Source: a virus (Duplodnaviria > Heunggongvirae > Uroviricota > Caudoviricetes). From it: 22,976 bases of DNA. A program made the position numbers and the translations under genes. The notes beneath the pieces were generated by a model. The model saw only the letters and a list, made by a program, of their open reading frames with translations. It was not told the origin of the DNA and made no database searches. Below, piece after piece: positions 6,018 to 22,976 of the stretch (its first letter is position 1; every line of letters begins with the position of its first letter). Where the stretch lies: positions 1 through 22,976 of IMG/VR virus record IMGVR_UViG_2778261512_000019; one strand, given 5' to 3'.

Positions 6018-6033
6018 TGACGGGTGAAGAATC

Positions 6034-6234: not shown

Positions 6235-6236
6235 GT

Positions 6237-6560
6237 ATGCTTCTGACAATGGAAGAGATTAAAGCCCAACTCCGGCTGGATGAGGATTTCGATGCTGATG
6301 ACCGCCATCTGCAACTGCTGGCCTGTGCGGCGCAAAAGCGGACGGAAACGTATCTGAACCGGAAGCTCTATGCTCCGGATGAAACCATTCCGGACAGCGA
6401 TCCGGACGGGCTGCACCTGCCGGATGATATTCGTCTGGGGATGCTGATGCTTATCAGCCATTTTTACGAAAACCGCTCGTCGGTTACGGAAGTGGAGAAA
6501 CTCGACATGCCGCAGAGTTTTGGCTGGCTTGTCGGCCCGTACAGGTACTTTCCGCAATGA
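6237..6560 (+). CDS. Head-tail connector protein (gp6-like); true start may be the internal Met at 6249
   Basis: 107-aa ORF, N-terminus MEEIKAQLRLDEDFDADD... resembles phage gp6-like connector proteins; stop overlaps the next start (ATGA). Confidence 0.7.
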   Translation: MLLTMEEIKAQLRLDEDFDADDRHLQLLACAAQKRTETYLNRKLYAPDETIPDSDPDGLHLPDDIRLGMLMLISHFYENRSSVTEVEKLDMPQSFGWLVGPYRYFPQ

Positions 6561-8005: not shown

Positions 8006-8013
8006 GGATCCTC

Positions 8014-8184
8014 ATGTTTGTCAAACCTGTTAAAGGGCGGTCAGTTCCTGACCCTGCCCGCGGCGACCTTTTGCCCGCCGAAGGGCGAAATGTTGACGAG
8101 AACAACTACTGGCTGCGCCGTGAAGCAGCGGGTGATATCCGGCGCGTGAATAAAAAGGTGAACACCGATGACGATAAGCTTTAA
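8014..8184 (+). CDS. Small conserved protein (DUF2635-like), absent from the supplied ORF track
   Basis: 56-aa ORF (MFVKPVKGRSVPDPARGDLLPAEGRNVDENNYWLRREAAGDIRRVNKKVNTDDDKL) with GAGGA RBS 5 nt upstream; overlaps the sheath start; a similar small protein precedes the sheath gene in Mu-like tail clusters. Confidence 0.5.
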   Translation: MFVKPVKGRSVPDPARGDLLPAEGRNVDENNYWLRREAAGDIRRVNKKVNTDDDKL

Positions 8185-9664
8185 CACCATTCCGTCGAAT
8201 ACGCTGGTTCCGCTGTTTTATGCGGAAATGGATAACCAGGCGGCGAATACTGCACAGGACAGCGGAGCATCGCTGCTGATTGGTCATGCCAATAACGGTG
8301 CAGAGATTGTTGCCAACAGTCTGGTACTGATGTCGTCGGCAGACTATGCACGCCAGATTTGTGGTGCGGGAAGTCAGCTGGCGCGTATGGTCGAGGCTTA
8401 TCGCCAGACCGACCCGTTTGGCGAGCTGTATGTGATTGCCGTTCCTGAATCCACAGGCGCGGCGGCAACGGTTACGCTGACGGTGACCGGGGCGGCAACC
8501 GAAACCGGCACGGTGAATGTGTATGTGGGACGTACCCGCGTGCAGGCACCGGTGACTAACGGCGATAACGTCACGATGATTGCCAGCAGTATCCAGGATG
8601 CCATCAATGCCGTTCCGGCCCTGCCGTTTACGGCTTCATCTTCGGCAGGCGTGGTTACACTGACCGCGCGTCATAAGGGGCTTTGCGGGAATGAAATTCC
8701 TGTCAGCCTCAATTACTACGGCTTTGGTGGGGGCGAAGTGCTGCCAGCGGGCGTACAGATTGCCGTGGCGACGGGTACCGCCGGAACGGGTGCTCCGGTT
8801 CTCACCGGCGCGGTGGCTGCAATGGCGGATGAGCCGTTTGATTATATCGGCCTGCCGTTCAACGACACGGCCTCCGTTAACACGCTGGTGACCGAGATGA
8901 ACGATACCAGCGGTCGCTGGAGCTATGCGCGTCAGCTGTATGGTCATGTGTATACGGCAAAGATCGGCACGCTGTCAGAACTGGTGACCGCAGGTGACCA
9001 GTTTAACCAGCAGCACATTACCCTGGCGGGGTACGAAAAAGACACCCAGACGCCTGCCGACGAGCTGGCGGCAAGCCGTACCGCCCGCGCAGCGGTGTTT
9101 ATCCGCAACGATCCGGCACGTCCCACGCAGACCGGTGAGCTGGTGGGTATGCTGCCTGCGCCGAAGGGGAAACGGTTCACGATGACCGAACAACAGACCC
9201 TGCTGTCTCATGGCGTGGCAACGGCGTATGTCGAAAGCGGGGTACTGCGCATTCAGCGTGATGTCACCACGTACAGGAAAAACGCTTACGGGGTTGCGGA
9301 TAACAGCTACCTCGACAGCGAGACGCTGCATACCAGTGCGTATGTACTGCGCAAACTGAAATCCGTCATTACCAGTAAGTACGGGCGTCACAAGCTTGCC
9401 AGCGACGGTACCCGCTTTGGTCCCGGTCAGGCGATTGTCACCCCGGCGGTGATCAAAGGGGAACTGCTGGCAACCTACCGTCAGCTTGAGCGTGCGGGGA
9501 TCGTGGAAAACTACGAACTGTTTAAGCAGTACCTGGTTGTGGAGCGTGATGCCAGCGATCCGAACCGCCTGAACACGCTGTTCCCGCCTGACTATGTTAA
9601 CCAGTTGCGTGTCTTTGCCGTGGTTAACCAGTTCCGTCTTCAGTATTCAGAGGAGTCTGCATAA
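8168..9664 (+). CDS. Contractile tail sheath protein (Mu L-like)
   Basis: 498-aa ORF, N-terminus MTISFNTIPSNTLVPLFYAEMDN... resembles Mu-type sheath proteins; followed by a 118-aa tube gene with TAATG overlap. Confidence 0.85.
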   Translation: MTISFNTIPSNTLVPLFYAEMDNQAANTAQDSGASLLIGHANNGAEIVANSLVLMSSADYARQICGAGSQLARMVEAYRQTDPFGELYVIAVPESTGAAATVTLTVTGAATETGTVNVYVGRTRVQAPVTNGDNVTMIASSIQDAINAVPALPFTASSSAGVVTLTARHKGLCGNEIPVSLNYYGFGGGEVLPAGVQIAVATGTAGTGAPVLTGAVAAMADEPFDYIGLPFNDTASVNTLVTEMNDTSGRWSYARQLYGHVYTAKIGTLSELVTAGDQFNQQHITLAGYEKDTQTPADELAASRTARAAVFIRNDPARPTQTGELVGMLPAPKGKRFTMTEQQTLLSHGVATAYVESGVLRIQRDVTTYRKNAYGVADNSYLDSETLHTSAYVLRKLKSVITSKYGRHKLASDGTRFGPGQAIVTPAVIKGELLATYRQLERAGIVENYELFKQYLVVERDASDPNRLNTLFPPDYVNQLRVFAVVNQFRLQYSEESA

Positions 9665-10020
9665 TGGCCCGTATCGGGGGAACCTGTTATTTCAAAATTG
9701 ACGGTCAGCAGCTATCGCTGACCGGCGGCATTGAGGTGCCCATGAACAGGACGGTCAATGATGACATCATCGGCCTGGACGGTTCAGTGGACCGCAAGGA
9801 AACTCACCGTGCGCCTTATGTTAAAGGGACCTTCAAGGTGCCGAAGAATTTTCCGGTGAGCAAAATCACCTCGTCTGATGAGATGACCATCACTGCCGAG
9901 CTGGCGAACGGTCAGGTCTATGTACTGTCGTCTGCCTGGCTGCACGGCGAAGCGAACCATAATGCCGAAGAAGGGACGGTTGATCTTGAGTTCCACGGTG
10001 AAGAAGGGGATTACCAGTAA
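9664..10020 (+). CDS. Tail tube protein (Mu M-like)
   Basis: 118-aa ORF immediately after the sheath gene; size and position. Confidence 0.8.
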   Translation: MARIGGTCYFKIDGQQLSLTGGIEVPMNRTVNDDIIGLDGSVDRKETHRAPYVKGTFKVPKNFPVSKITSSDEMTITAELANGQVYVLSSAWLHGEANHNAEEGTVDLEFHGEEGDYQ

Positions 10021-10289
10021 TGAAAGAGCTTGAGTTAAAGAAACCGATTACCGCTCATGGCGAGACACTCTCCGTACTGGAGTTTGATGAGCCCACCGGG
10101 AAAGATGTCCGCGAGCTGGGGTATCCCTACCAGATGAATCAGGATGAGTCCGTCAGACTTCTGGCGCATGTGGTATCGAAATACATTGTGCGGCTGGCGA
10201 AAGTGCCGCAAAACTCTGTCGACCAGATGTCTCCGGCAGACCTGAATGCTGCGGCGTGGCTTGTGGCTGGTTTTTTCCTCCAGGCCTGA
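10020..10289 (+). CDS. Tail assembly chaperone (G-like, upstream frame)
   Basis: 89-aa ORF between the tube and tape-measure genes; ends just after a TTTTTTC slippery site. Confidence 0.7.
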   Translation: MKELELKKPITAHGETLSVLEFDEPTGKDVRELGYPYQMNQDESVRLLAHVVSKYIVRLAKVPQNSVDQMSPADLNAAAWLVAGFFLQA

Positions 10290-10438
10290 CGGCTGAATAC
10301 CTCACTGATCGCTTCTTTGACTGCGCCAGCTACTGGCGCATTAATCCCTTCGAATTGCTGAATATGCCGATCAGTGAAATTCCCTTGCTGGTCAGTCAGG
10401 CAAACAGGATAGAGCAGGAGAAACGCACACATGGCTGA
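10020..10438 (+). CDS. Tail assembly chaperone -1 frameshift fusion product (GT-like); shift at the T TTT TTC heptamer 10271-10277, then frame 2 to the stop at 10438
   Basis: The 10256-10438 ORF is in the -1 frame relative to 10020-10289 and overlaps it exactly at the slippery heptamer; the arrangement precedes the tape measure gene as in lambda G/GT. Confidence 0.55.
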
Positions 10439-12266
10439 ATTTGAGCTTAAGGCGTTGATCACCGGTGTCGACAGACTTTCTCCCGCGCTGTCGAAAATGC
10501 AAAAGAAAATCCGGGGATTTAAACGCCAGGCGGAAGAAGCATCACAGGGTGGGCTGGCGCTTGGTGGCGGACTGGCAGCGGGTCTGACGCTTTCCCTGAA
10601 ATCTTATGCCGATCAGGAAAACGCCGCCACCGGGCTGAAAGTCGCCATGATGGATGCGAACGGCGAGGTCGGAAAGCGCTTTCAGGACATCAATAAACTG
10701 GCTATTGGCCTGGGTAACCAGCTACCCGGTACAACGGCTGATTTCCAGAACATGATGCAGATGCTGGTGCGTCAGGGGATCCCGGCAGAAAACATTCTGG
10801 GTGGTGTGGGTAAAGCGACAGCTTATCTTGCGGTACAACTGAAAAAAACACCGGAAGCGGCTGCTGAGTTTGCTGCAAAGATGCAGGATGCTACCGGAAC
10901 GGCGTCAGAAGACATGATGGGGCTGTTCGACACTATCCAGAAGGCGTTTTATCTGGGCGTTGACGATACCAACATGTTGTCCTTCTTCACTAAAACCAGT
11001 TCTGTTCTGAAGATGGTGAACAAGGACGGTCTTCAGGCTGCACAGAGCCTTGCCCCTATCAGCGTCATGATGGATCAGATGGGGATGAACGGGGAGTCGG
11101 CAGGTAATGCCCTGCGAAAAGTTATCCAGTCCGGATTAAGCGTTAAGAAAATCAGGGACGTCAATAAAGTCATGGCCCGCCAGAAACTCGGAGTGCAGCT
11201 CGATTTTACTGACGGCAAAGGGAGTTTTGGCGGTCTTGATAACATGTTCAGGCAACTGGCAAAGCTGCGAAAACTGACCGACGTTAAGCGAACAGGTGTA
11301 CTTAAGGCAATATTTGGTGATGATGCCGAAACCCTTCAGGTGGTCAATGCTCTGATCGATAAAGGAAAGGATGGTTACGATCAGATCCAGCAGAAGATGA
11401 ATAAACAGGCCAGCCTGAATAAACGTGTTCAGGCACAGCTTGGTACGCTGTCCAACCTGTGGGAGGCAATGACAGGGACCGCAACTAACGGCCTTGCGGC
11501 TATTGGCGGCGCATTTTCTGGTGACGCTAAAAATATCACACAATGGCTGGGGGAGTTGGGGGAGAAATTCACGAAGTTTGCGGATGAAAATCCCCGGGTT
11601 ATTCGCGGCGTCGTCGGGCTTGCTGCCGGTCTTGCGATTCTGAAACTGGGATTGATGGGCGTGGGCAGTGCCATCAGTATTGTCAGCAGGATTATGTCGA
11701 TGACGCCGATTGGCATGATTGCGACGGCGATTGCTCTGGCTGCGGGATTAATTATCACTAACTGGGATGTTGTCGGACCTTATTTCAAGAAGCTCTGGGA
11801 AACCATTGGTCCTTATTTTGAGGCAGGTTGGGAACTTCTGAAGAAGGTTTTTGCCTGGTCGCCGCTGGGGATGGTGATCAATAACTGGGGACCGGTTGTT
11901 AAGTGGTTTCAGGATATGTGGGATAAGCTGAAGCCGATTATTGAATGGTTTACCGACAGTTCCGGTGACACGGTCGATGCCATTAACTCGGCGCAGTGGG
12001 GCGCGGGTGCTTATGATGCTTATGGGACGGGAATACCGGCACGGGGATACACTCCTTATCCGGCGGTGGATCCGGCTCAGGCAAACAACGCCTCCGATGC
12101 CACAGGCTCGAATCCCTTCATGATTAACAAAGCTTCTGCGCCAAAAGTTGATGGTGAGATCAAGGTCTCTTTTGTGAATTCGCCTCCGGGTATGCGGGTT
12201 ATGGAAACGCGATCCAGCGGTTTTGATGTCAGCCATGATGTTGGCTATACGCGCTTTGGCAGGTAA
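10431..12266 (+). CDS. Tail tape measure protein
   Basis: 611-aa ORF with a coiled-coil-like N-terminal half and a Gly/Ala-rich hydrophobic segment (VVGLAAGLAILKLGLMGVGSAISIV); directly follows the chaperone pair. Confidence 0.85.
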   Translation: MAEFELKALITGVDRLSPALSKMQKKIRGFKRQAEEASQGGLALGGGLAAGLTLSLKSYADQENAATGLKVAMMDANGEVGKRFQDINKLAIGLGNQLPGTTADFQNMMQMLVRQGIPAENILGGVGKATAYLAVQLKKTPEAAAEFAAKMQDATGTASEDMMGLFDTIQKAFYLGVDDTNMLSFFTKTSSVLKMVNKDGLQAAQSLAPISVMMDQMGMNGESAGNALRKVIQSGLSVKKIRDVNKVMARQKLGVQLDFTDGKGSFGGLDNMFRQLAKLRKLTDVKRTGVLKAIFGDDAETLQVVNALIDKGKDGYDQIQQKMNKQASLNKRVQAQLGTLSNLWEAMTGTATNGLAAIGGAFSGDAKNITQWLGELGEKFTKFADENPRVIRGVVGLAAGLAILKLGLMGVGSAISIVSRIMSMTPIGMIATAIALAAGLIITNWDVVGPYFKKLWETIGPYFEAGWELLKKVFAWSPLGMVINNWGPVVKWFQDMWDKLKPIIEWFTDSSGDTVDAINSAQWGAGAYDAYGTGIPARGYTPYPAVDPAQANNASDATGSNPFMINKASAPKVDGEIKVSFVNSPPGMRVMETRSSGFDVSHDVGYTRFGR

Positions 12267-12289
12267 TGAAAAATTAATCTGTTAATGAG

Positions 12290-12311
12290 TCCCACTCCGG
12301 TGGGATTTTTT
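12290..12311 (+). terminator. Weak hairpin plus T-run between tape measure and the next gene (possible attenuator)
   Basis: TCCCAC-TCCG-GTGGGA 6-bp stem followed by TTTTTT, 24 nt after the tape measure stop. Confidence 0.3.
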
Positions 12312-12326
12312 ATGTACGGAGTTTAT

Positions 12327-13655
12327 ATGACGTGGAAAGACAGACTTCAGGACGCGTCATTTCGCGGTGTGCCGTTTAAGGTTGAAGAAGAAAGTACGGG
12401 AACCGGTCGTCGTGTGGAAACGCACGAATACCCGAACCGCGACAAACCCTATACCGAAGACCTGGGGAAAATCACTTTCCGCCCGTCCATCACGGCTTAT
12501 GTGGTGGGAGATGACTGCTTTGACCAGCGCGATCGCCTGATTGACGCGCTGAATAAACCCGGTCCCGGCACGCTTGTCCATCCGACTTACGGTGAGCTGA
12601 AAGTCTGTGTTGACGGAGAGGTTCGGGTCAGCACATCGAAGAGTGAAGGGCGTATTGTCCGCTTTGACCTGAAGTTTGTCGAAGCGGGAGAACTCTCTTA
12701 CCCCACTTCAGGTGCGGCGACGGCGCAGACGCTGATGTCATCCTGTTCTGCACTGGATGACTGCATCAGTGACAGCTTCAGCGGTTTCAGTATCGATGGC
12801 GTGGCGGATTTCGTGCAGAACGACGTTATTGGTAATGCCAGCATAATGCTGGGGTATGTTTCTGATGCGATGAAAGTGGTGGATTCTGCCGTATCGGATG
12901 CCGCCAGGCTGTTGCAGGGGGATATCTCGGTACTTCTGCCGCCGCCATCGTCAGGCAAAAATTTCGTTGAGCAGGTGCAGAAAATGTGGCGTACCGGGAA
13001 ACGCCTTTATGGTAACGCCAGCGATCTGGTCACCATGATCAAAACGCTTTCCGGTGTCAGCCTCGGCAGTGATCTGCAACCGCGCGGCGTCTGGAAAACG
13101 GACAGTAAAACCACCGCTACGGCGACGCAGCAGCGTAACGTGGTTGCCAGCACCCTTCGTACGACCGCAATCAGCGAAGCGGCGTATGCCGTCACCCGAT
13201 TGCCTGCGCCAACAACTTCCGCGGTGATGCAGAATGCCGCAGTGGGGCAGGCAACAACAGCTGCACAGAGCACCGGCTGGCCTTCCGTCACGCATCCGGC
13301 ACTGAACAATGCACCGGCGATGAAAAACACGGTTGATCTGCCGACGTGGGAAGAACTGACTGACATTCGCGACACACTGAATACGGCAATTGATAAGGAG
13401 TTGTCCCGTACAACCAGTGATGCGCTGTTTCTGGCGCTGCGCCGGGTGAAAGCAGATCTGAATGCGGATATCAACACGCGCCTTGAACAGTCTGCACGGA
13501 TCATTCAGCGCACACCGGATGAGGTTTTACCCGCGCTGGTGCTGGCGGCGACCTGGTTTGATAACGCGACGCGTGACGCGGACATTATCCGGCGTAATGC
13601 TATTACGCATCCCGGCTTTGTGCCGGTGATCCCTCTGAAGGTGCCAGTGCAATGA
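12327..13655 (+). CDS. Mu N-like DNA circularization / baseplate hub-associated protein
   Basis: N-terminus MTWKDRLQDASFRGVPFKVEE... matches the conserved start of Mu gpN-family proteins; GGAG lies 6 nt upstream of 12327. The longer ORF from 12285 would include the hairpin and has no RBS. Confidence 0.8.
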   Translation: MTWKDRLQDASFRGVPFKVEEESTGTGRRVETHEYPNRDKPYTEDLGKITFRPSITAYVVGDDCFDQRDRLIDALNKPGPGTLVHPTYGELKVCVDGEVRVSTSKSEGRIVRFDLKFVEAGELSYPTSGAATAQTLMSSCSALDDCISDSFSGFSIDGVADFVQNDVIGNASIMLGYVSDAMKVVDSAVSDAARLLQGDISVLLPPPSSGKNFVEQVQKMWRTGKRLYGNASDLVTMIKTLSGVSLGSDLQPRGVWKTDSKTTATATQQRNVVASTLRTTAISEAAYAVTRLPAPTTSAVMQNAAVGQATTAAQSTGWPSVTHPALNNAPAMKNTVDLPTWEELTDIRDTLNTAIDKELSRTTSDALFLALRRVKADLNADINTRLEQSARIIQRTPDEVLPALVLAATWFDNATRDADIIRRNAITHPGFVPVIPLKVPVQ

Positions 13656-14731
13656 ACGATAACGTCACGCTACGGGTAAATGGCCGGGAGTGGAATGGCT
13701 GGACATCGGTGCGCATCGGTGCCGGTATTGAACGGCTGGCGCGGGATTTCAGTGTGGAGATCACCCGCCAGTGGCCGGGAGATGAGGGTATCACCACGCT
13801 TCAGCCGCGCATTAAAAACGGTTCAAAAGTGGAAGTGCTGATTGGTGATGAGCGGGTGATCACCGGCTGGGTGGAGGCGACTCCCGTTCGTTACGATGCC
13901 CGTTCGGTCAGCACAGGTATTGCCGGACGCAGTCTGACCGCTGACCTGATTGACTGTGCAGCCGAACCGACACAGTTTAACGGACGATCGCTGGTACAGA
14001 TTGCGCAGGCGCTTGCTGCGCCTTTCGGCATTGAGGTGGTGAACAGCGGTGCGCCGTCGGGTGTTATTCCTGATGTCCAGCCTGATCACGGTGAAACGGT
14101 GATTGAGGTAATCAACAAAATACTCGGTCAGCAGCAGGCACTGGCTTACGACGATCCGCACGGCAGGCTGGTGATTGGCGGTATTGGCTCAACGCGGGCA
14201 CATACCGCGCTGGTACTTGGGGAAAACATCCTTTCCTGCGATACGGAGAAGAGTATCCGGGAGCGGTTTTCTGTTTACCAGGTGGCGGGGCAGCGTACCG
14301 GAAACGACGATGATTTCGGTGAGGCCACCACCACCGCGCTGCGGGCCCGCACAGAGGACGCATTTATTGCCCGTTACCGTCCGATGTATATCAGGCAGAC
14401 AGGGCAGGCTACGGGGGCAGGCTGTATTGCGCGTGCTGACTTTGAAGCCCGGCAACGGGCGGCGCGGACGGATGAAACCACCTATGTGGTGCAGGGCTGG
14501 CGACAGGGTAACGGTACGCTGTGGCAACCCAACCAGCGGGTGATTGTCTTTGATCCGGTCTGTGGTTTTGACAATACCGAACTGCTTGTTTCGGAAGTCA
14601 CGTTTACTCAGGACCAGAACGGCACCCTGACGGAAATCCGTGTCGGCCCGCCTGATGCTTATCTGCCTGAACCTGAAGACCCCGGCGCGCGGAAAAAGAA
14701 AAAAGCCAGAGTACAGGAGGACCCGTTCTGA
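13652..14731 (+). CDS. Mu P-like baseplate hub protein
   Basis: 359-aa ORF coupled (ATGA) to the gpN-like gene, in the conserved Mu-like baseplate order. Confidence 0.75.
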   Translation: MNDNVTLRVNGREWNGWTSVRIGAGIERLARDFSVEITRQWPGDEGITTLQPRIKNGSKVEVLIGDERVITGWVEATPVRYDARSVSTGIAGRSLTADLIDCAAEPTQFNGRSLVQIAQALAAPFGIEVVNSGAPSGVIPDVQPDHGETVIEVINKILGQQQALAYDDPHGRLVIGGIGSTRAHTALVLGENILSCDTEKSIRERFSVYQVAGQRTGNDDDFGEATTTALRARTEDAFIARYRPMYIRQTGQATGAGCIARADFEARQRAARTDETTYVVQGWRQGNGTLWQPNQRVIVFDPVCGFDNTELLVSEVTFTQDQNGTLTEIRVGPPDAYLPEPEDPGARKKKKARVQEDPF

Positions 14732-15279
14732 TGAGGACGATTGAAGCCATGCAGCGACAACTTCTCGGCCTGATTGGGCGGGCAGTGGTGAAAAGCATCA
14801 GTGCCGCCACGAAATGTCAGACCGTGGATGTGTCCCTGATTGCCGGTGAACCCAAAGCCGGGGTTGAACATCTTGAACCCTACGGTTTTACCGCAAGGGC
14901 AAACAGCGGTGCGGAAGCGGTGGTGTTGTTTCCGGATGGCGACCGTTCTCATGCGGTGGTTGTTACGGTGTCGGACCGGCGCTACCGCCTGAAAGGGCTG
15001 CATACGGGGGAGGTGGCTGTCTATGACGATCAGGGGCAGTCCGTGACGCTGACCCGGGAGGGGATCGTGGTGGACGGTGCAGGTAAAACAATCACGTTTC
15101 GCAATGCGCCTAAGGCTCGTTTTGAAATGGACCTGGAAGTGACCGGACAGGTGAAAGACCTGTGCGACTCCACCGGCACCACCATGTCAGCGATGCGGCT
15201 TGCCTATAACGGGCATCGTCACAGAGAGAACGGTCAGGGCAGTAACACCGACAAACCTGATAAAGCGATGGAGGCATGA
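14731..15279 (+). CDS. Baseplate spike / assembly protein V-like (Mu gp45-like)
   Basis: 182-aa ORF in the conserved position and size range; overlapping start/stop with its neighbours. Confidence 0.75.
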   Translation: MRTIEAMQRQLLGLIGRAVVKSISAATKCQTVDVSLIAGEPKAGVEHLEPYGFTARANSGAEAVVLFPDGDRSHAVVVTVSDRRYRLKGLHTGEVAVYDDQGQSVTLTREGIVVDGAGKTITFRNAPKARFEMDLEVTGQVKDLCDSTGTTMSAMRLAYNGHRHRENGQGSNTDKPDKAMEA

Positions 15280-15704
15280 TGGAACTGTGGCTGACGGTGA
15301 ACGGTAAACGCACCTGCGCCAGCGCACCGCTGGATCCGCTGACCCGTGCCGTGGTGATTTCCCTGTTCACCTGGCGGCGGGCTGAACCTGATGACAATGC
15401 CGACGTCCCGATGGGATGGTGGGGGGATACCTGGCCTGCGGTACAGAATGACCGTTACGGCTCCCGACTGTGGCTGCTTCAGCGCAGCAAACTGACCAAT
15501 CAGCTGGGGCAGACGGTAAGGGGATATATCCGCGAATGCCTGCAATGGATGATTGATGACGGCGTGGTGTCCCGTATTGATCTGGATATCCGCCGCACCG
15601 GGATTAATGAGCTGGGTAACAGTATCACCCTCTGGCGTCGTGACGGACCGGTAATGATTTCTTTTGATGATCTGTGGAGTGCGATAACGCATGGCGGACA
15701 GTGA
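15276..15704 (+). CDS. Baseplate wedge protein, GPW/gp25 family (Mu gp46-like)
   Basis: 142-aa ORF upstream of the baseplate J-like gene; size and position. Confidence 0.75.
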   Translation: MMELWLTVNGKRTCASAPLDPLTRAVVISLFTWRRAEPDDNADVPMGWWGDTWPAVQNDRYGSRLWLLQRSKLTNQLGQTVRGYIRECLQWMIDDGVVSRIDLDIRRTGINELGNSITLWRRDGPVMISFDDLWSAITHGGQ

Positions 15705-16749
15705 ATTTCAACGCCCGACGCTGGCAGAAAATATCAGTATGCTCCGTAACGATTTATTCGCCAGGCTGGACGTCAGCGACACGCTCCGGCGCATGGATGA
15801 AGACGTGCGGGCAAAGGTGTATGCGGCGGCGCTGCATACGGTTTACGGTTACATCGATTATCTGGCAATGAACATGCTGCCTGACCTGTGCGATGAGTCC
15901 TGGCTGGCGCGACATGCTGCGATGAAACGGTGTCCGCGCAAGGGGGCCACGTCTGCCAGCGGGTATATGCGCTGGGAAGGTGTCAGCGATGGCCTGAAGG
16001 TGACCGCCGGGAGTGTTATTCAGCGCGATGACCTGGTTCAGTACACGACAACTGACGATGCAACCAGCTCCGGTGGTGTCCTGCGCGTGCCGATCGCCTG
16101 CTCAAGTGCAGGTGCGGTCGGTAACGCTGACGACGGTACGGCATTAATCCTGGTCACGCCGGTGAATGGTCTGCCGTCTTCCGGTGTGGCTGACACCATT
16201 ACAGGCGGATTTGATACTGAAGAGCTGGAAACGTGGCGCGCCCGCGTCATTGAGCGGTATTACTGGACGCCGCAGGGCGGGGCTGACGGGGACTATGTCG
16301 TTTGGGCTAAAGAAGTGCCCGGCATTACCCGCGCATGGACATACCGTCACTGGATGGGAACGGGAACTGTCGGTGTGATGATTGCCAGCAGTGACCTGAT
16401 TAATCCCATTCCGGAAGAATCAACGGAAACGGCAGCAAGACAACATATCGGGCCACTGGCCCCGGTGGCAGGCTCTGATTTGTATGTATTCAGGCCGGTG
16501 GCACATACGGTGGATTTTCATATCCGCGTGACGCCGGACACACCAGAAATACGGGCTGCCATTACCGCGGAGTTGCGTTCGTTCCTGCTGCGTGATGGTT
16601 ATCCGCAGGGAGAACTGAAGGTATCGCGTATCAGTGAGGCGATTTCCGGTGCGAACGGGGAATACAGCCATCAGTTGCTTGCACCGGTGGACAATATCTC
16701 CATTGCGAAAAACGAACTGGCGGTACTGGGGACGATTTCATGGACGTGA
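15691..16749 (+). CDS. Baseplate J-like protein (Mu gp47-like); intact counterpart of the K-12 e14 jayE remnant
   Basis: 352-aa ORF immediately upstream of the ymfQ-like gene, matching the e14 order jayE-ymfQ-stfP. Confidence 0.8.
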
Positions 16750-17324
16750 CAAACGATGATTACATCCGCCTGTTATCGGCACTGTTGCCGCCCGGTCCGG
16801 CGTGGTCAGCCAGCGATCCGGCGATTGCCGGTGCGGCACCGTCATTAACCCGTGTTCATCAGCGTGCGGATGCCCTGATGCGGGAGCTGGATCCGCGCAC
16901 CACCACTGAACTGATAAACCGCTGGGAGCGTCTGTGCGGTCTGCCGGATGAATGTATTCCCGCAGGGACACAGACCCTTCGTCAGCGTCAGCAACGGCTG
17001 GATGCGAAGGTTAACCTGGCGGGCAGCATCAACGAGAATTTTTATCTTGCACAGCTTGCTGCCCTGGGCAGACCAGATGCCAACATCACGCGATACGATA
17101 AAAGCACGTTCACCTGCTCATCGGTCTGTACTGACGCGGTGAATGCGCCGGAATGGCGGTATTACTGGCAGGTCAACATGCCAGCCGCCACAAACACCAC
17201 CTGGATGACATGTGGCGATCCCTGTGATTCCGCGCTGCGTATCTGGGGCGACACCGTTGTCGAATGTGTGCTTAACAAACTCTGCCCGTCGCATACCTAC
17301 GTAATTTTTAAATATCCGGAGTAA
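16740..17324 (+). CDS. ymfQ: Tail protein YmfQ (Mu gp48-like, DUF2313)
   Basis: 194-aa ORF, the same length as K-12 e14 YmfQ, directly upstream of the side tail fibre gene. Confidence 0.75.
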
Positions 17325-17327
17325 TCC

Positions 17328-18149
17328 ATGCATCGTATAGACACGAAAACCGCGCAGAAGGATAAGTTCGGCGCGGGTAAGAACGGTTTTACCCGTGGTA
17401 ACCCCCAGACCGGCACACCTGCCACCGATCTGGATGATGACTACTTTGACATGTTGCAGGAGGAACTTTGCAGTGTTGTGGAGGCATCCGGTGCCAGCCT
17501 GGAGAAGGGGCGGCATGACCAGCTGCTTACAGCGCTTCGTGCGCTGCTGTTAAGCCGCAAGAATCCGTTTGGCGATATCAAATCGGATGGCACGGTGAAA
17601 ACGGCTCTCGAAAACCTTGGTTTGGGAGAAGGTGCTCCAGCTATTGGCGTTCCGTTCTTCTGGCCGTCCGCCGCAATGCCAAATACTGTAATCGACAGTT
17701 GGTCCAGTATGGTGTTTTTGAAGTTCAACGGCGCGAAATTCTCTGCCACTGATTACCCTGTGCTGGCGAAAGTGTTTCCGGCGCTAGCATTACCTGACGC
17801 ACGGGGTGATTTCATTCGTATCTGGGATGATGGGCGCGGGATTGATGTCGGACGTACCCTACTTTCAGGGCAATCACACACAATTATGGATCATGCACAC
17901 AATATGGAATTGTGGACGGGGGACGGGCTTGCCGCAGGAAGTGCACGGGAAGGAGTAAACCCAGGAATACTGGCTACATACGGTGACGGGGGAATAGTTA
18001 AAACGGACGAACCCGGTCTTAAGGTGCCTTCCTCACTACGAGCTCTTAGCTCTCGTAGTGTTAAACGTTATGGTGAAATTAGTGGAAATGTAGATACAGA
18101 AACCCGTCCACGAAATATTGCATTTAACTTTCTGGTGAGGGCTAAATAA
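17328..18149 (+). CDS. stfP: Side tail fibre protein: constant N-terminal part (to about 17620) fused to the variable C-terminal part in the current orientation
   Basis: 273-aa ORF; the invertase crossover site lies inside it at 17612-17631 (encoding ENLGLGE); Gly-rich C-terminal region. Confidence 0.75.
17612..17631. repeat. Left invertase recombination site (pix-like) inside the tail fibre gene
   Basis: AAACCTTGGTTTGGGAGAAG; its inverted partner at 19477-19496 differs at one position; AAACC-TT-GGTTT dyad with a 2-bp centre, as in Gin/Hin/Cin/Pin sites. Confidence 0.75.
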
Positions 18150-18742
18150 TGATACCTGTTTTTGATGAAAATGGGCTGGCTACAGTGCCGGGCGATATGC
18201 GTTGTTTTTATTATAATGCAGTAACGTATGAATATACCGGCTGGTCTGATGAATATATTAATACTGGCGTAAGTATACCCGCCTGTTCCACTGGTATTGA
18301 CCCGGGCGAAAACATCCCGGGAAAAGTGGCAGTATTTACGGGTAAGGGATGGAGCCATGAAGAAGACCATCGCAATGAGACCGTTTACTCAACTGAAAAT
18401 GGCGCAGCTGTTACAGTGGATTATATCGGTGCCATCAAAGACGGTTATGTCACGCTTTCACCGTTAACGCCATACGATAAATGGGATGGTGAGAAATGGG
18501 TGACGGATACCGAGGCACAGCATAGCGCCGCAGTAGAAGCGGCAGAAGCACAGCGCCAGTCGCTGATTGATGCTGCAATGGCTTCCATCAGTCTGATTCA
18601 ACTGAAATTACAGGCTGGGCGGAAGCTGACGCAGCCAGAAAACACCCGACTTAACGCTGTGCTGGATTACATTGACGCGGTGACGGCAACAGATACCAGC
18701 ACAGCGCCGGACGTCATCTGGCCTGAACTGCCGGAGGCGTAG
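18149..18742 (+). CDS. tfaP: Tail fibre assembly protein (expressed orientation)
   Basis: 197-aa ORF with TAATG coupling to the fibre gene; C-terminal motif TAPDVIWPELPEA typical of Tfa proteins. Confidence 0.75.
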   Translation: MIPVFDENGLATVPGDMRCFYYNAVTYEYTGWSDEYINTGVSIPACSTGIDPGENIPGKVAVFTGKGWSHEEDHRNETVYSTENGAAVTVDYIGAIKDGYVTLSPLTPYDKWDGEKWVTDTEAQHSAAVEAAEAQRQSLIDAAMASISLIQLKLQAGRKLTQPENTRLNAVLDYIDAVTATDTSTAPDVIWPELPEA

Positions 18743-19157
18743 GCCATTCAATATCTGGCGCACCGGAAGTATCGACCAGTTCCAGTGCGTCCAGATAATC
18801 CAGCCACAAATTATATTGCGCCAGTTCCTCACCTTTCAGACGACCAATTGATGCTTTACCTGGCCATTGTTTACTGTTTATGTATTCGTTGGCCTGGTTA
18901 ATCAATTGCTGCTTTTTAGTTTCGGCTGATGCAATTTGTTCTTCACGTGTTGGTGGAGGTATATCTGCCCATGCAGGCAGTCCATCCTCTCCGACACATC
19001 TGTATTTTCCTTCTGGTGGTGTATCATAGAAATATTCCCTGAAAATTACTTCGTCTATATCAACACCTTTTTCTTCAGGCCATTCACCTTTTTCAACATA
19101 AAGAGACTGAAGTTCGTAAGGATATGCCAGGTTGTTTACGTACAGATATTTCATCAT
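18714..19157 (-). CDS. tfaE: Tail fibre assembly protein (alternative, currently silent orientation)
   Basis: 147-aa minus-strand ORF with C-terminal GAPDIEWPTPP Tfa motif; TAATG-coupled to the alternative fibre tip upstream on the minus strand. Confidence 0.75.
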   Translation of the reverse strand: MMKYLYVNNLAYPYELQSLYVEKGEWPEEKGVDIDEVIFREYFYDTPPEGKYRCVGEDGLPAWADIPPPTREEQIASAETKKQQLINQANEYINSKQWPGKASIGRLKGEELAQYNLWLDYLDALELVDTSGAPDIEWPTPPAVQAR

Positions 19158-19496
19158 TACCAGCCCTTAGCGAAAAACGCACCACCTTCAAGACCATAAT
19201 TGCAGTGAGCTATGAAGCCGGTAGTGCTCCAGTTGGTCGCCCCCCACATATTCCCGCCCCCGAAACCACCATCGCACACAATTACAATGCCCGGTGTCTG
19301 TGTAAATGGAATCGGGAATGAAACATTGGCGGATACAGGCCCGTGTTCACCAGGAAAACTAATTCGTCCCCACTGTTCAATTGAACCATCTGGCATTTTT
19401 CGCCAGCCTGAACCTGATGCATATGATGACATATCAGGTATCTGATTTTCCCCTGTTCCCACATTTCGTTTTGCCGCTTCTCCCAAACCAACGTTT
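19157..19496 (-). CDS. stfE: Alternative tail fibre C-terminal segment (no own start; would fuse in frame to the constant N-terminus after inversion)
   Basis: Minus-strand frame reads [17 protein letters not shown]... from the right recombination site, in the same frame as ENLGLGE at the left site; Gly-rich tip ([16 protein letters not shown]). Confidence 0.7.
19477..19496. repeat. Right invertase recombination site (pix-like), about 60 bp upstream of pin
   Basis: CTTCTCCCAAACCAACGTTT, whose reverse complement AAACGTTGGTTTGGGAGAAG matches the left site at 19 of 20 positions. Confidence 0.75.
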
Positions 19497-19557
19497 ATGA
19501 AAATGCAGAAATAACGAGCAAATGGCATCATTCCTGCTTTTGTCAGGGGGAGCTACC

Positions 19558-20112
19558 ATGCTTATTGGCTATGTACGCGTATCAACAAATGACCAGAACA
19601 CAGATCTACAACGTAATGCGCTGAACTGTGCAGGATGCGAGCTGATTTTTGAAGACAAGATAAGCGGCACAAAGTCCGAAAGGCCGGGACTGAAAAAACT
19701 GCTCAGGACATTATCGGCAGGTGACACTCTGGTTGTCTGGAAGCTGGATCGGCTGGGGCGTAGTATGCGGCATCTTGTCGTGTTGGTGGAGGAGTTGCGC
19801 GAACGAGGCATCAACTTTCGTAGTCTGACGGATTCAATTGATACCAGCACACCAATGGGACGCTTTTTCTTTCATGTGATGGGTGCCTTGGCTGAAATGG
19901 AGCGTGAACTGATTGTTGAACGAACAAAAGCTGGACTGGAAGCTGCTCGCGCACAGGGGCGAATTGGTGGACGTCGTCCCAAACTTACACCAGAACAATG
20001 GGCACAGGCCGGACGATTAATTGCATCAGGAGTTCCTCGCCAGAAGGTGGCGATTATCTATGATGTTGGTGTGTCAACTTTGTATAAGAGGTTTCCTGCA
20101 GAGGATAAATAA
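19558..20112 (+). CDS. pinE: Serine DNA invertase Pin (Gin/Hin/Cin family)
   Basis: 184-aa product starting MLIGYVRVSTNDQNTDLQ with the catalytic Ser in YVRVSTNDQ and a C-terminal HTH (VGVSTLYKRF); matches my recollection of e14 Pin; lies beside the inverted repeats. Confidence 0.9.
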   Translation: MLIGYVRVSTNDQNTDLQRNALNCAGCELIFEDKISGTKSERPGLKKLLRTLSAGDTLVVWKLDRLGRSMRHLVVLVEELRERGINFRSLTDSIDTSTPMGRFFFHVMGALAEMERELIVERTKAGLEAARAQGRIGGRRPKLTPEQWAQAGRLIASGVPRQKVAIIYDVGVSTLYKRFPAEDK

Positions 20113-20218
20113 AGTTAAAGACACTTTGTGTACAAAAGAAAATAAAACAACAGCAACTTGTTGCAATTTTATCAATAAAAGTAGTATTGTCGTAAAAAAT
20201 TGATTAAAGATTAATATT

Positions 20219-21052
20219 ATGCATGTTTTTGATAATAATGGAATTGAACTGAAAGCTGAGTGTTCGATAGGTGAAGAGGATGGCGTTTATGGTCTAATCC
20301 TTGAGTCGTGGGGGCCGGGTGACAGAAACAAAGATTACAATATCGCTCTTGATTATATCATTGAACGGTTGGTTGATTCTGGTGTATCCCAAGTCGTAGT
20401 ATATCTGGCGTCATCATTAGTCAGAAAACATATGCATTCTTTGGATGAAAGAAAAATCCATCCTGGTGAATATTTTACTTTGATTGGTAATAGCCCCCGC
20501 GATATACGCTTGAAGATGTGTGGTTATCAGGCTTATTTTAGTCGTACGGGGAGAAAGGAAATTCCTTCCGGCAATAGAACGAAACGAATATTGATAAATG
20601 TTCCAGGTATTTATAGTGACAGTTTTTGGGCGTCTATAATACATGGAGAACTATCAGAGCTTTCACAGCCTACAGATGATGAATCGCTTCTGAATATGAG
20701 GGTTAATAAATTAATTAAGAAAACGTTGAGTCAACCCGAGGGCTCCAGGAAACCAGTTGAGGTAGAAAGACTACAAAAAGTTTATGTCCGAGACCCAATG
20801 GTAAAAGCTTGGATTTTACAGCAAAGTAAAGGTATATGTGAAAACTGTGATAAAAATGCTCCGTTTTATTTAAATGATGGAAGCCCATACTTGGAAGTGC
20901 ATCATGTAATTCCCCTGTCTTCAGGTGGTGCTGATACAACAGATAACTGTGTTGCCCTTTGTCCGAATTGCCATAGAGAATTGCACTATAGTAAAAATGC
21001 AAAAGAACTAATCGAGATGCTTTACGTTAATATAAACCGATTACAGAAATAA
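20219..21052 (+). CDS. mcrA: McrA, modified-cytosine-dependent (type IV) restriction endonuclease with C-terminal HNH domain
   Basis: 277-aa ORF (the K-12 McrA length) with C-terminal CENCD...HHVIPLSSGGADTTDNCVALCPNCHRELH zinc-finger/HNH motif; AT-rich gene between pin and attR, as in e14. Confidence 0.9.
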   Translation: MHVFDNNGIELKAECSIGEEDGVYGLILESWGPGDRNKDYNIALDYIIERLVDSGVSQVVVYLASSLVRKHMHSLDERKIHPGEYFTLIGNSPRDIRLKMCGYQAYFSRTGRKEIPSGNRTKRILINVPGIYSDSFWASIIHGELSELSQPTDDESLLNMRVNKLIKKTLSQPEGSRKPVEVERLQKVYVRDPMVKAWILQQSKGICENCDKNAPFYLNDGSPYLEVHHVIPLSSGGADTTDNCVALCPNCHRELHYSKNAKELIEMLYVNINRLQK

Positions 21053-21084
21053 AATTGTTTATTAAAGTCACATTTAAGACGTAA

Positions 21085-21106
21085 TACCCTACAGGGTAAA
21101 AATTTT
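21085..21106 (+). terminator. Weak hairpin plus A/T run downstream of mcrA
   Basis: TACCC-TACA-GGGTA followed by AAAATTTT, about 30 nt after the mcrA stop. Confidence 0.3.
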
Positions 21107-21285
21107 CTCTGATCTTAACTTCTGCAAATGTTAACTGCTATTTTTATGCTAAAAATGGTTATCAAAACTCAAAAACACATGTTGATAATCAATGAGTTAT
21201 GGAAATGCTAAGAGCTAATGAGTTATATGCAAATTAGTAAAATTATGTTGCTATGTCAAATAGTTACGATTTGGTCATCTAACTA

Positions 21286-21450
21286 ATGTTACGCCATATG
21301 GGCTGGACTGAAGCCGCAGACCTGATTGTTAAAGGTATGGAAGGCGCAATCAATGCGAAGACCGTAACCTATGACTTCGAGCGTCTGATGGAAGGCGCTA
21401 AACTGCTGAAATGTTCAGAATTTGGTGATGCGATCATCAAGAACATGTAA
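21286..21450 (+). pseudogene. icdC: icd 3' fragment (last 54 codons of isocitrate dehydrogenase) marking the prophage attR junction
   Basis: Frame translates to [54 protein letters not shown], the Icd C-terminus; similarity stops at an in-frame TAA at 21280-21282, beyond which the sequence is phage-side. Confidence 0.85.
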
Positions 21451-21473
21451 TCACTACATGTGTTTAATATTGC

Positions 21474-21505
21474 AACGGGCGTATAACACGCCCGTTGTTT
21501 TATTT
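21474..21505 (+). terminator. icd rho-independent terminator
   Basis: AACGGGCGT-ATAAC-ACGCCCGTT perfect 9-bp stem followed by GTTTTATTT, 24 nt after the icd stop codon. Confidence 0.7.
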
Positions 21506-21552
21506 ATGTAGGTATTATTAATAGCATATCGAGCATATTTATATAAAACCCT

Positions 21553-21876
21553 TTACTTGAGCCCATATGGGCATATTTTTATAATGCAACTATTATGCAA
21601 ACATTTATTTGTTATTTTTCTTTCTCCTGGAGGACACTCTTGACTGCTTTTGAGTAGACTCCATAAATCCTTGTTGAATGGTGCGATGTTATAAATAGTA
21701 ATAGGATATTCTTTATCTTTAAGGATAATTCCAGATTTAACCGGTGTAAATATACTGCCAGGAGGGAGAAATATAGTAGATTGATACCAGATGATCATTT
21801 TCATATTACCCCATATGGCTGAAAAAGATATGCCGCATGAAGGTTGAATTATCGTGTCAATTACTATCCACTTCAT
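21553..21876 (-). CDS. iraM: Anti-adaptor protein IraM (RssB inhibitor that stabilises RpoS)
   Basis: 107-aa minus-strand ORF ([31 protein letters not shown]...) matching my recollection of E. coli IraM in length, sequence and position next to icdC; AT-rich. Confidence 0.8.
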
Positions 21877-22333
21877 TTGTTATGTCTTATCCCACGGTAT
21901 TTAATATAGTTCATTTGGATGTTCATTTCTTTATTTTGCATATGAGTATATTACCCCTTCAAAAAATAAATTAATTAAAACGATTGCTTATATAAAACAA
22001 AATTTAAAGCAAGGAATCTCAATGGATGTTAAACAAAATGAGATTTAGTGAAAACAATAAATTATTCACTTCGTTTTAGATTTGTTTAGCTATAATGTTA
22101 TACATTCAAATGACTGAACATCCTGTAATTAAAACATAGCCTTTATGCTACTTTGTGCCAATTTGCTAAACATTATGGTTGCCTTTTTATATAACGATAA
22201 TAATGAATATAAGCATGACATGAGAATAAGGTTTCAATTTTTGAGTTATATAGGAAAGGTTTAACCTGTTCCTGGCTAAAATACATATAACTGGATGATG
22301 ACTAAACCAAAACACATGTGCGTTAAGTATTGA

Positions 22334-22364
22334 AACGGGCGTATGGCACACCCGTTGTTTTTAT
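22334..22364 (+). repeat. Second, degenerate copy of the icd terminator hairpin and its flank
   Basis: AACGGGCGTATGGCACACCCGTT + GTTTTT; the surrounding ~50 bp (22314-22364) align at roughly 80% identity with 21456-21505. Confidence 0.5.
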
Positions 22365-22571
22365 AAATATATTAACCGTTATAAAATAACGTATAGAAAG
22401 TCAAGTGATCACATTTCAAATATCAATTTGATAGTATTGGCATGGTGATTATTTATGGGTAGCAATAAAAGGACAGTATTTATCATCCATAGGGATAGTC
22501 TCTGTACTTTTATTCCCATTATGCTAATGCCTTACTGAATTATGAAGCATTTCTTAAGCATCCAACTTTAG

Positions 22572-22976
22572 CTAGATTAATGGTTTATTATTTTCTACAT
22601 CTTCAATATATAAAAGCGTATTATCAATGGCGTAGTAACTGCGTTTGTTATGATTAACATCAGTAACCCACCGGAAAACGCCCGCGCCTGCTAGTGTTGA
22701 ACAGTATTCCCGAAATGTAGATTTTCCGCAAATATGAAGCAATGCGGCCTCTTTTATTTTAGCAGGGTTCTTGGTCGTACTAACTTTTAACAGGTTCCTG
22801 GTTCCTCTTAATAACAAAACCGTGTCATCGTGAGTAATAATTCTGATGTTATCCGTAGCCAGATAATAAATGTAATGTGCAATACGGTGATGTTTTAATT
22901 CTGAATAAAACCAGGAGAAGTTTTGCTCTTTTCTCACTTGCTCAAACATCTTTTGAAAAACAACGACCTGATCCAT
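22572..22976 (-). CDS. ycgX: YcgX-like protein (DUF1398); start codon at the window edge
   Basis: 134-aa minus-strand ORF (MDQVVVFQKMFEQVRKEQNFSWFYSELKHH...) matching my recollection of E. coli YcgX, the gene next to iraM; its ATG is the last three bases of the window, so the true start cannot be confirmed. Confidence 0.75.
   Translation of the reverse strand: MDQVVVFQKMFEQVRKEQNFSWFYSELKHHRIAHYIYYLATDNIRIITHDDTVLLLRGTRNLLKVSTTKNPAKIKEAALLHICGKSTFREYCSTLAGAGVFRWVTDVNHNKRSYYAIDNTLLYIEDVENNKPLI

What the first reader, a model, noticed from the sequence alone, without database searches (positions are those of the whole stretch)
20113..21106. AT-rich mcrA defence gene at the prophage end, between the invertase and attR
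Base composition changes abruptly after pin: the virion operon is visibly GC-rich, whereas 20113 onward is strongly AT-rich. The single gene here encodes a 277-aa protein with a C-terminal Cys4/HNH nuclease motif and corresponds to McrA, which restricts DNA carrying modified cytosines. It is a classic prophage-borne defence gene in a terminal cargo position. This is a known system rather than a new one; I see no partner genes (methylase, ATPase, second nuclease) beside it.
Basis: partly seen in the sequence, partly recalled or inferred. Interest (0 to 1): 0.5.

Follow-up and report, generated by a model that had tools for sequence, protein, structure and literature searches.

The report
Known McrA restriction gene in e14-like prophage
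This stretch holds mcrA, a long-known E. coli gene whose enzyme cuts incoming DNA carrying methylated or hydroxymethylated cytosine, sitting in its usual place at the right end of an e14-type prophage; it is ordinary and already annotated.

Summary
The observation and the interpretation both hold. A single 277-aa ORF (20219-21052, +) lies between the invertase gene pinE (19558-20112) and the prophage/host junction (21285/21286). It is 272/277 identical to E. coli K-12 McrA. It matches the EcoKMcrA crystal structure 6GHC at E=1e-186 over its full length. It keeps every residue that has been tested experimentally: the NEco pocket S30/W31/N119/T121/K122, two CxxC zinc pairs, and H228/H229/N243/H252/H256.

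The interval has 35.9% GC against 54.7% for the prophage to its left. That is lower than any 994-bp window in the prophage.

The DNA from 19400 to 22976 is 100% identical to E. coli JB2, where RefSeq already calls the gene mcrA. The window is the virion half of an intact e14-like prophage integrated in icd, followed by the host genes icdC, iraM, ymgK, ymgL and ycgX.

- The prophage end is at 21285, not 21106.
- GC falls in steps from about 18000.
- The host flank is even more AT-rich than mcrA.

Minor additions:
- This is a rare allele with five substitutions, including G211D beside a zinc cysteine.
- In some strains the slot holds PD-T4-3 instead of mcrA.

Nothing here is new in kind.

The parts
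19558..20112 (+). pinE, the serine invertase gene immediately upstream. It is context, not part of the defence gene. RefSeq starts it at 19558; the mechanical ORF runs from 19522.
   Evidence: Pfam Resolvase PF00239 E=1.8e-51 and HTH_7. Annotated as pinE in JB2 and K-12.
20113..20218 (+). AT-rich pin-mcrA spacer (GC 0.226). It contains a block (about 20158-20218) that is conserved with a 76%-identical Buttiauxella orthologue. The block includes TTGCAA, 15 nt, then TAGTAT at 20161-20187. This is a candidate promoter and RBS; that reading is inferred, not shown.
   Evidence: Composition. The cross-genus DNA alignment shows similarity beginning about 60-70 nt before the ATG. The generic promoter scan was not above chance: 8 found against 6.4 expected.
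20219..21052 (+). mcrA coding sequence, 277 codons plus stop. It encodes the Type IV modification-dependent restriction endonuclease EcoKMcrA, in an allele carrying S67L, R142H, S163N, G211D and N222S relative to K-12.
   Evidence: ORF. 272/277 identity to K-12 b1159. PDB 6GHC E=1.3e-186 over residues 1-277. PADLOC mREase_IV E=9.4e-199. Annotated mcrA (WP_000557905.1) in the 100%-identical JB2 DNA.
20219..20647 (+). NEco domain (residues 1-143). It reads Y-5(h)mC-G-R in duplex DNA without base flipping. Pocket residues S30, W31, N119, T121 and K122, and loop residue G34, are all present.
   Evidence: Match to the NEco-DNA co-crystal chains 6R64/6T21/6T22, E=7e-93. Residue check against PMC7145662. 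No Pfam family covers this part.
20837..20986 (+). HNH (beta-beta-alpha-Me) nuclease core, residues 207-256. Structural Zn site: C207, C210, C248, C251. Active site: H228 (metal ligand), H229 (general base), N243, H252 and H256.
   Evidence: Pfam PF01844 E=1.4e-14. Residues checked against PMC6182155.
21085..21108 (+). Small hairpin TACCCTACAGGGTA followed by AAAATTTTCT, 33 nt after the stop codon. It is a weak terminator-like site, and its function has not been shown.
   Evidence: Terminator scan. Identical in K-12. Not conserved in Buttiauxella.
21053..21285 (+). Phage-side arm of attR, the last 233 bp of the prophage (GC 0.278 over 21053-21282). It has no ORF with a family match.
   Evidence: The K-12 'cryptic prophage e14' feature ends at the base equivalent to window 21285. 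The arm is found in 339 of 5426 E. coli genomes, about the same number as mcrA (340).
21286..21450 (+). icdC, the displaced original 3' end of the host icd gene. It marks the host side of attR. Its terminator hairpin follows at 21472-21498.
   Evidence: Pfam Iso_dh match to profile positions 301-348. Annotated as a pseudogene in JB2 and K-12. Homology to the prophage-supplied icd 3' end at attL begins at 21286. Terminator.

Best explanation
The interval carries mcrA, the stand-alone Type IV (modification-dependent) restriction endonuclease EcoKMcrA. It sits as AT-rich accessory cargo at the right end of an e14-family prophage integrated in icd.

Mechanism, as established for the 98%-identical K-12 enzyme:
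- Each N-terminal NEco domain binds duplex DNA at Y-5mC-G-R or Y-5hmC-G-R. It holds the two (hydroxy)methyl groups in separate uncharged pockets without flipping a base.
- The HNH site then cuts both strands. It uses H229 as general base, a metal held by H228/H252/H256 (Mn2+ in vitro), and a structural Zn on four cysteines.

The lysogen thereby restricts incoming DNA that carries such marks. Examples are M.HpaII-type methylated plasmids and non-glucosylated 5hmC T-even phage. Its own DNA is spared because E. coli Dcm makes C-5mC-W-GG, which does not fit Y-5mC-G-R. No cognate methylase or partner protein is needed.

Shown here: gene identity, domain architecture, conservation of all functional residues, and genomic position. 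Inferred by homology: activity and specificity of this particular allele. Inferred only: expression from its own promoter in the AT-rich spacer.
For: - Full-length identity of 272/277 to K-12 McrA.
- PDB 6GHC E=1.3e-186 and the NEco-DNA complexes 6R64/6T21/6T22 E=7e-93.
- Pfam HNH E=1.4e-14 at residues 207-256, with nothing else found.
- PADLOC Type IV mREase E=9.4e-199 over 277/277 profile positions.
- All pocket, zinc and catalytic residues are present. They are those defined in PMC7145662 and PMC6182155.
- In those papers H228A/H229A/H252A/H256A abolish cleavage, S30V/S30L abolish restriction, M.HpaII-methylated plasmid and T4gt are restricted, and glucosylated T4 is not.
- The gene order pinE - mcrA - icdC - iraM is the same as in K-12 e14. 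The DNA is 100% identical to E. coli JB2, where it is annotated mcrA.
- GC is 0.359 against 0.547 for the prophage, consistent with acquired cargo.
- A virion-derived phage record (vB_EcoM-689R6) carries the same pin-mcrA pair.
- Three of the five substituted positions also vary in orthologues. H142 and S222 occur in the 76%-identical Buttiauxella protein. Position 211 is C there and A in ScoMcrA.
Against: - No activity data exist for this allele. Four of its five substitutions (S67L, R142H, S163N, G211D) were absent from the five other E. coli and phage alleles compared.
- G211D puts a charged residue next to zinc ligand C210.
- Only 5 of 340 mcrA-positive genomes are at least 99% identical to it.
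- Even the K-12 enzyme has weak, Mn2+-dependent and not strictly methyl-dependent cleavage in vitro.
- No promoter was identified above chance.
Confidence: 0.93

Rival explanations
1. The ORF is intact, but this rare allele is a weakened or inactive McrA. G211D next to the zinc-binding C210, or the combination of five substitutions, could have damaged folding or dimerisation. The gene would then be a decaying passenger rather than a working defence.
For: Five of the nine nucleotide differences from K-12 change an amino acid. Four of those changes are private among the six alleles aligned. The allele is rare, with 5 of 340 genomes at >=99% identity. Decay of mcrA does occur in this slot: PEC165 keeps only a 3' remnant.
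Against: The reading frame is full length and every experimentally tested functional residue is kept. Position 211 is Cys in the Buttiauxella orthologue and Ala in ScoMcrA, so Gly is not required there. H142 and S222 are shared with that orthologue. The identical allele is kept in several unrelated isolates from rabbit farm, beef cattle and water.
Confidence: 0.08
2. The protein protects mainly by binding modified DNA and blocking its replication or expression, not by cutting it. The HNH domain would serve chiefly as a dimerisation module.
For: In PMC6182155, in vitro cleavage is weak and not strictly methyl-dependent. Catalytic mutants and the N-terminal fragment still prevented plaques at low phage titre. 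The abstract says restriction is impaired by active-site mutations 'unless the enzyme is highly' expressed.
Against: In the same work H228A and H229A lose efficient restriction of T4gt at all titres, and lose restriction of methylated plasmid at normal expression. The complete HNH catalytic set is conserved here and in the 76%-identical orthologue.
Confidence: 0.05
3. It is a member of the ScoMcrA/SRA-HNH family, or part of a multi-gene system such as McrBC, whose partner lies nearby.
For: The name is shared. The HNH region matches ScoMcrA 5ZMM at E=6e-11.
Against: The match to ScoMcrA covers only residues 183-275. No SRA or PUA domain is detected, and PMC7145662 states that NEco is not homologous to SRA. 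The flanking genes are pinE and the icdC pseudogene, with no GTPase, ATPase or methylase.
Confidence: 0.01

Closest known systems
EcoKMcrA (mcrA/rglA, b1159) of cryptic prophage e14, E. coli K-12; PDB 6GHC, 6R64, 6T21, 6T22
   Same: - Same length (277 aa), 98% identity, and the same NEco + HNH architecture with all functional residues.
- Same neighbours (pinE upstream, icdC downstream).
- Same 233-bp attR arm at 97.4% identity.
- Same AT-rich composition.
   Different: - Five substitutions: S67L, R142H, S163N, G211D, N222S.
- The host prophage here has a complete virion module (terminase through tail fibres, window 1-19531). In K-12 e14 that module is largely deleted or pseudogenised.
mcrA of Escherichia phage vB_EcoM-689R6 (ON470584)
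   Same: The pin-mcrA pair sits in an e14-like myovirus with the same Mu-like tail and HK97-like head genes. Protein identity is 97.5%.
   Different: It is a different allele: it shares S222 but has V59I, E144D and V190L. The record is a partial, rearranged assembly.
ScoMcrA (Streptomyces coelicolor; PDB 5ZMM) and other SRA-HNH enzymes such as TagI
   Same: A C-terminal HNH nuclease that dimerises, with a separate N-terminal sensor of modified DNA. All are Type IV enzymes.
   Different: The sensor domains are unrelated. SRA flips the base, whereas NEco reads 5mC inside the duplex. Only residues 183-275 align.
PD-T4-3 (GIY-YIG defence gene) in the same prophage slot in E. coli PEC165
   Same: It occupies the position between the tail-fibre module and attR of an e14-like prophage at icd. 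It is a single-gene nuclease-type defence cargo.
   Different: It has an unrelated fold and family and lies on the opposite strand. An acyltransferase gene accompanies it, and it is flanked by a decayed 3' remnant of mcrA.

Membership tests
EcoKMcrA family (NEco-HNH Type IV restriction endonuclease) | Full-length sequence homology to EcoKMcrA | tested here: met
   272/277 identity to K-12 b1159. 6GHC E=1.3e-186 over residues 1-277. PADLOC PDLC03656 matches 1-277 of 277 profile positions at E=9.4e-199.
EcoKMcrA family (NEco-HNH Type IV restriction endonuclease) | N-terminal NEco domain with proximal pocket (S30, N119, K122), distal pocket (W31, T121) and the 29-37 recognition loop | tested here: met
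   Residues 1-143 match 6R64/6T21/6T22 at E=7e-93. S30, W31, G34, N119, T121 and K122 are all present. Definitions come from PMC7145662.
EcoKMcrA family (NEco-HNH Type IV restriction endonuclease) | HNH beta-beta-alpha-Me active site: H228 and H229, N243, H252, H256 | tested here: met
   All five residues are present. Pfam HNH E=1.4e-14. Their roles and the loss of activity in alanine variants are in PMC6182155.
EcoKMcrA family (NEco-HNH Type IV restriction endonuclease) | Structural zinc site made of two CxxC motifs | tested here: met
   C207-x2-C210 and C248-x2-C251 are present (PMC6182155). The residue after C210 is Asp here instead of Gly.
EcoKMcrA family (NEco-HNH Type IV restriction endonuclease) | Stand-alone gene with no cognate methyltransferase or motor partner | tested here: met
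   The neighbours are pinE (resolvase family) and the icdC pseudogene.
EcoKMcrA family (NEco-HNH Type IV restriction endonuclease) | Restriction of Y-5mC-G-R or 5hmC DNA in vivo, and modification-dependent DNA binding | not testable with these tools
   Known only for the K-12 allele (PMC6182155, PMC7145662). It needs a plasmid or phage restriction assay with this allele.
e14-family prophage cargo at attR in icd | Located between the pin invertase and the displaced icd 3' end (icdC), inside the prophage boundary | tested here: met
   The order pinE - mcrA - icdC - iraM is identical to K-12. The prophage end maps to 21285. In JB2 the prophage runs from icd and intE to this point.
SRA-HNH family (ScoMcrA, TagI) | SRA/PUA-type base-flipping sensor domain | tested here: not met
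   No SRA or PUA hit in Pfam. Only the HNH part aligns to 5ZMM. The literature states that NEco is not homologous to SRA.
McrBC-type Type IV system | GTPase (AAA+) motor subunit plus a separate nuclease subunit | tested here: not met
   It is a single gene, and there is no ATPase or GTPase ORF within 20113-21285 or adjacent to it.

The most novel reading that the evidence does not exclude
The least ordinary reading the evidence leaves open has two parts.
1. The slot between the pin/tail-fibre module and attR of icd-integrating e14-family prophages is an exchange point for single-gene nucleases. It holds mcrA in about 340 genomes. In at least one of 9 genomes with the same partial-match pattern it holds PD-T4-3 plus an acyltransferase over a decayed mcrA stub.
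2. The rare allele here, with four private substitutions including G211D beside the zinc knuckle, has altered activity or specificity compared with K-12 McrA.
Probability: 0.15. Interest if true: 0.25.

Novelty: already known. Interest (0 to 1): 0.08.

Why it matters
It matters little beyond correct annotation. McrA has been studied for more than 30 years as a barrier to cloning methylated DNA, its structure is solved, and the identical sequence is already annotated in RefSeq.

The small points of value are:
- The gene is seen here in an apparently complete e14-like prophage, rather than the deleted K-12 remnant.
- Natural allelic variation exists next to the zinc site.
- The same prophage slot can hold a different defence nuclease in other strains. 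This fits the general picture of prophage ends as defence-cargo sites.

Tried and rejected
- **Rfam scan.** A scan of the whole window at gathering thresholds gave no RNA family.
- **Promoter and terminator scan of 19900-21600.** Promoter-like sites were not above shuffled expectation (8 against 6.4). No mcrA promoter is claimed from it. Only a weak hairpin follows the gene.
- **Pfam and NCBIfam for the N-terminal domain.** No family model covers residues 1-180. The domain is identified only through the solved NEco structures.
- **Linker-scanning paper.** I tried to read the McrA mutagenesis paper (PMC516834) to judge the substituted positions, but it is not held.
- **Partner genes.** I looked beside mcrA and found none in the window. 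A CBASS pair at the far left end of the same prophage in JB2 is a separate system, not a partner.
- **ScoMcrA/SRA-HNH or McrBC membership.** Considered and rejected on domain content.
- **GC shift as a marker of the prophage boundary.** Rejected, because the host flank is also AT-rich.
- **Direct and inverted repeats in 20000-22976.** Nothing flanks mcrA itself. The only solid repeat is the icd-terminator duplicate around iraM.
- **Structure prediction and the large protein-database searches.** Not run. A 98%-identical crystal structure and exact RefSeq annotation made them unnecessary.

Full report
**Observation**

It follows the stop codon of the invertase gene. The mechanical ORF for that gene is 19522-20112; RefSeq starts pinE at the position equivalent to 19558.

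Base composition:
- The interval is 35.9% GC, the coding sequence 38.2% (third positions 30.9%), and the 106-bp spacer before it 22.6%.
- The virion genes at 1-17327 are 55.6% GC.
- Among all 994-bp windows of the prophage part 1-20112 the lowest is 45.6% (mean 54.7%, sd 3.1%).

So the composition shift is real and far outside the local range. Two qualifications apply. The fall is stepwise, because the tail-fibre and invertible region and pin are already at 44-52%. It also does not end with the prophage, because the host flank 21451-22976 is 32.3% GC.

**What the window is**

The stretch 19400-22976 is 100% identical to the chromosome of E. coli JB2. There the annotation runs HNH endonuclease, terminase, portal, capsid, Mu-like tail and baseplate, tail fibres, pinE, mcrA, a truncated isocitrate dehydrogenase gene, iraM, ymgK, ymgL, ycgX.

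Further left in JB2 the same element continues through lysis, Q, replication, the repressor ymfK, xisE and intE to icd. This is a prophage of about 44 kb, with a complete set of virion genes, integrated in icd. It is a full version of the 15-kb cryptic prophage e14 of K-12, which has the same right end: pinE, mcrA, icdC, iraM.

The boundary was fixed in two ways. Aligning the window to K-12 places the end of the annotated e14 feature at window 21285 and icdC at 21286-21450. Aligning attR with the prophage-supplied 3' end of icd at attL shows homology starting at 21286. A further 180 bp or so of AT-rich phage DNA follows before attR.

**What the gene is**

- The protein is 272/277 identical to K-12 McrA, with no gaps.
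- Against all PDB sequences the best hits are EcoKMcrA 6GHC (E=1.3e-186, residues 1-277) and the isolated N-terminal domain bound to modified DNA, 6R64/6T21/6T22 (E=7e-93, residues 1-143).
- Pfam finds only an HNH domain at 207-256 (E=1.4e-14) and nothing in the N-terminal 180 residues.
- PADLOC's Type IV methyl-directed restriction enzyme model matches end to end (E=9.4e-199).
- NCBIfam has no specific model for it.

I checked residue by residue against the two structural papers.
- NEco pocket and loop residues S30, W31, G34, N119, T121 and K122 are present (PMC7145662).
- The two CxxC pairs C207/C210 and C248/C251 are present (PMC6182155).
- The HNH set is present: H228 as metal ligand, H229 as general base, N243, H252 and H256 (PMC6182155).

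Neither is met.

**Mechanism**

This rests on the K-12 enzyme.
- EcoKMcrA is a dimer held by its HNH domains, which form one DNA site. The two NEco domains are independent, and each binds duplex DNA.
- NEco recognises Y-5mC-G-R and Y-5hmC-G-R without flipping bases, using separate pockets for the two methyl groups. S30V and S30L abolish restriction.
- Cleavage needs Mn2+ in vitro and is abolished by H228A, H229A, H252A and H256A.
- In cells the enzyme restricts M.HpaII-methylated plasmid and 5hmC phage T4gt, but not glucosylated T4.
- E. coli's own Dcm mark is C-5mC-W-GG, which does not fit Y-5mC-G-R. That explains why no protective partner is needed; this step is my inference.
- There is no methylase, ATPase or second nuclease next to the gene.

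**The allele**

Relative to K-12 there are nine nucleotide differences in the coding sequence. Five change the protein: S67L, R142H, S163N, G211D and N222S.

In an alignment with K-12, three wild E. coli isolates and phage vB_EcoM-689R6, the first four changes are private to this allele. N222S is shared with the phage. Only 5 of the 340 mcrA-positive complete genomes are at least 99% identical to it.

None of the five positions is a residue with a demonstrated role. G211D lies directly after zinc ligand C210, which leaves a small doubt about full activity. Against that doubt, a 76%-identical orthologue in a Buttiauxella genome has H142 and S222 like this allele and has Cys at 211. ScoMcrA has Ala at the equivalent position. 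Activity of this allele remains inferred.

**Distribution and mobility**

- mcrA occurs in 340 of 5426 complete E. coli genomes, always chromosomal. Many of them are K-12 laboratory derivatives.
- The 230-bp attR arm occurs in 339 genomes.
- The e14-type integrase occurs in 496 genomes, so about a third of elements with this integrase lack mcrA.
- In a species-level scan of GTDB genomes, full-length relatives appeared only in E. coli/Shigella and in one Buttiauxella MAG.
- In Buttiauxella the gene is not beside a pin gene. It lies near an Hcp gene and a CAP12/Pycsar-type TIR protein.
- DNA similarity to the window there starts 60-70 nt before the ATG and stops at the stop codon. This suggests the transferable unit is the coding sequence with a short upstream block (TTGCAA, 15 nt, TAGTAT at 20161-20187). 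That block may be its promoter, which is inference only. The generic promoter scan gave nothing above chance.

**Variation in the slot**

Nine genomes give only a partial mcrA match of 80-90% identity and an attR-arm match of 90-95%. In the one I examined, PEC165, the last 143 nt of mcrA align at 87% by BLAST, and similarity extends to about 190 nt in the alignment. The attR arm is 92.6% identical.

Upstream of that stub lie an acyltransferase gene and a GIY-YIG gene that PADLOC identifies as PD-T4-3 (E=1.8e-139). pin is missing. Cargo at this prophage end has therefore been replaced by recombination at least once.

**Comparison with known systems, and verdict**

This is EcoKMcrA itself, in its canonical genomic position, already annotated in RefSeq for the identical sequence. 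It is not an SRA-HNH enzyme of the ScoMcrA type, since only the HNH part aligns and there is no SRA domain. It is not part of a McrBC-type system.

- Novelty: already known.
- Interest: low.

Noticed in passing
L005 18684-21970 (E. coli JB2, NZ_CP182203.1; same prophage, outside the window): The left end of the same prophage, between intE and icd, carries a type I CBASS pair. The CD-NTase cyclase matches PADLOC at E=6.5e-137. The Cap15 two-TM effector matches Pfam PF18153 at E=1.6e-37. An unassigned 320-aa ORF sits alongside. K-12 e14 has lit/ymfD/ymfE in that slot, so both prophage ends carry defence cargo.
   Followed up: partly
L004 3153-6230 (E. coli PEC165): In this e14-like prophage the mcrA position holds an acyltransferase (PF01757) and the GIY-YIG defence gene PD-T4-3. 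pin is missing. A decayed 3' stub of mcrA, roughly 143-190 nt long, remains next to the attR arm. A second integrase and a lambdoid prophage follow icdC directly, giving tandem occupancy of icd.
   Followed up: partly
window 21459-21501 and 22319-22361: A 43-nt direct repeat (84% identity) of the icd terminator region brackets iraM and ymgK. In E. coli MS10858 the roughly 860-bp iraM-ymgK segment is absent, and the junction falls exactly within this repeat. iraM therefore lies on a presence/absence segment flanked by duplicated icd-terminator sequence. It may be the scar of an older icd-targeted insertion.
   Followed up: partly
window 17612-17631 and 19477-19496: A 20-nt inverted repeat (95% complementary) lies 1845 nt apart. 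One arm is inside the tail-fibre gene and the other just upstream of pin. Between them are two opposed sets of tail-fibre C-terminus and assembly genes (18149-18742 on +; 18714-19157 and 19157-19531 on -). This is the Pin-invertible host-range segment.
   Followed up: partly
window 1-351 and 477-2701: The window starts exactly at a small HNH endonuclease gene placed just before the P27-family small terminase and the large terminase. This is the common HNH-terminase packaging arrangement and is unrelated to mcrA (L001 602-3302).
   Followed up: no
L009 2625-4999 and 27614-31063 (E. coli MS10858): Another icd-integrated, degraded lambdoid element has the same integrase type but no mcrA. It carries an AAA-ATPase plus HNH endonuclease pair next to icd, and the sitABCD iron/manganese transporter next to icdC.
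   Followed up: no
L014 4001-4834 and 6011-6907 (Buttiauxella MAG DAMBYU010000002.1): This is the only full-length McrA relative found outside Escherichia/Shigella (76% identity). It lies outside a pin/prophage-end context, near an Hcp gene and a CAP12/Pycsar-type TIR-domain protein. It has Ala instead of Gly at NEco loop position 34.
   Followed up: partly
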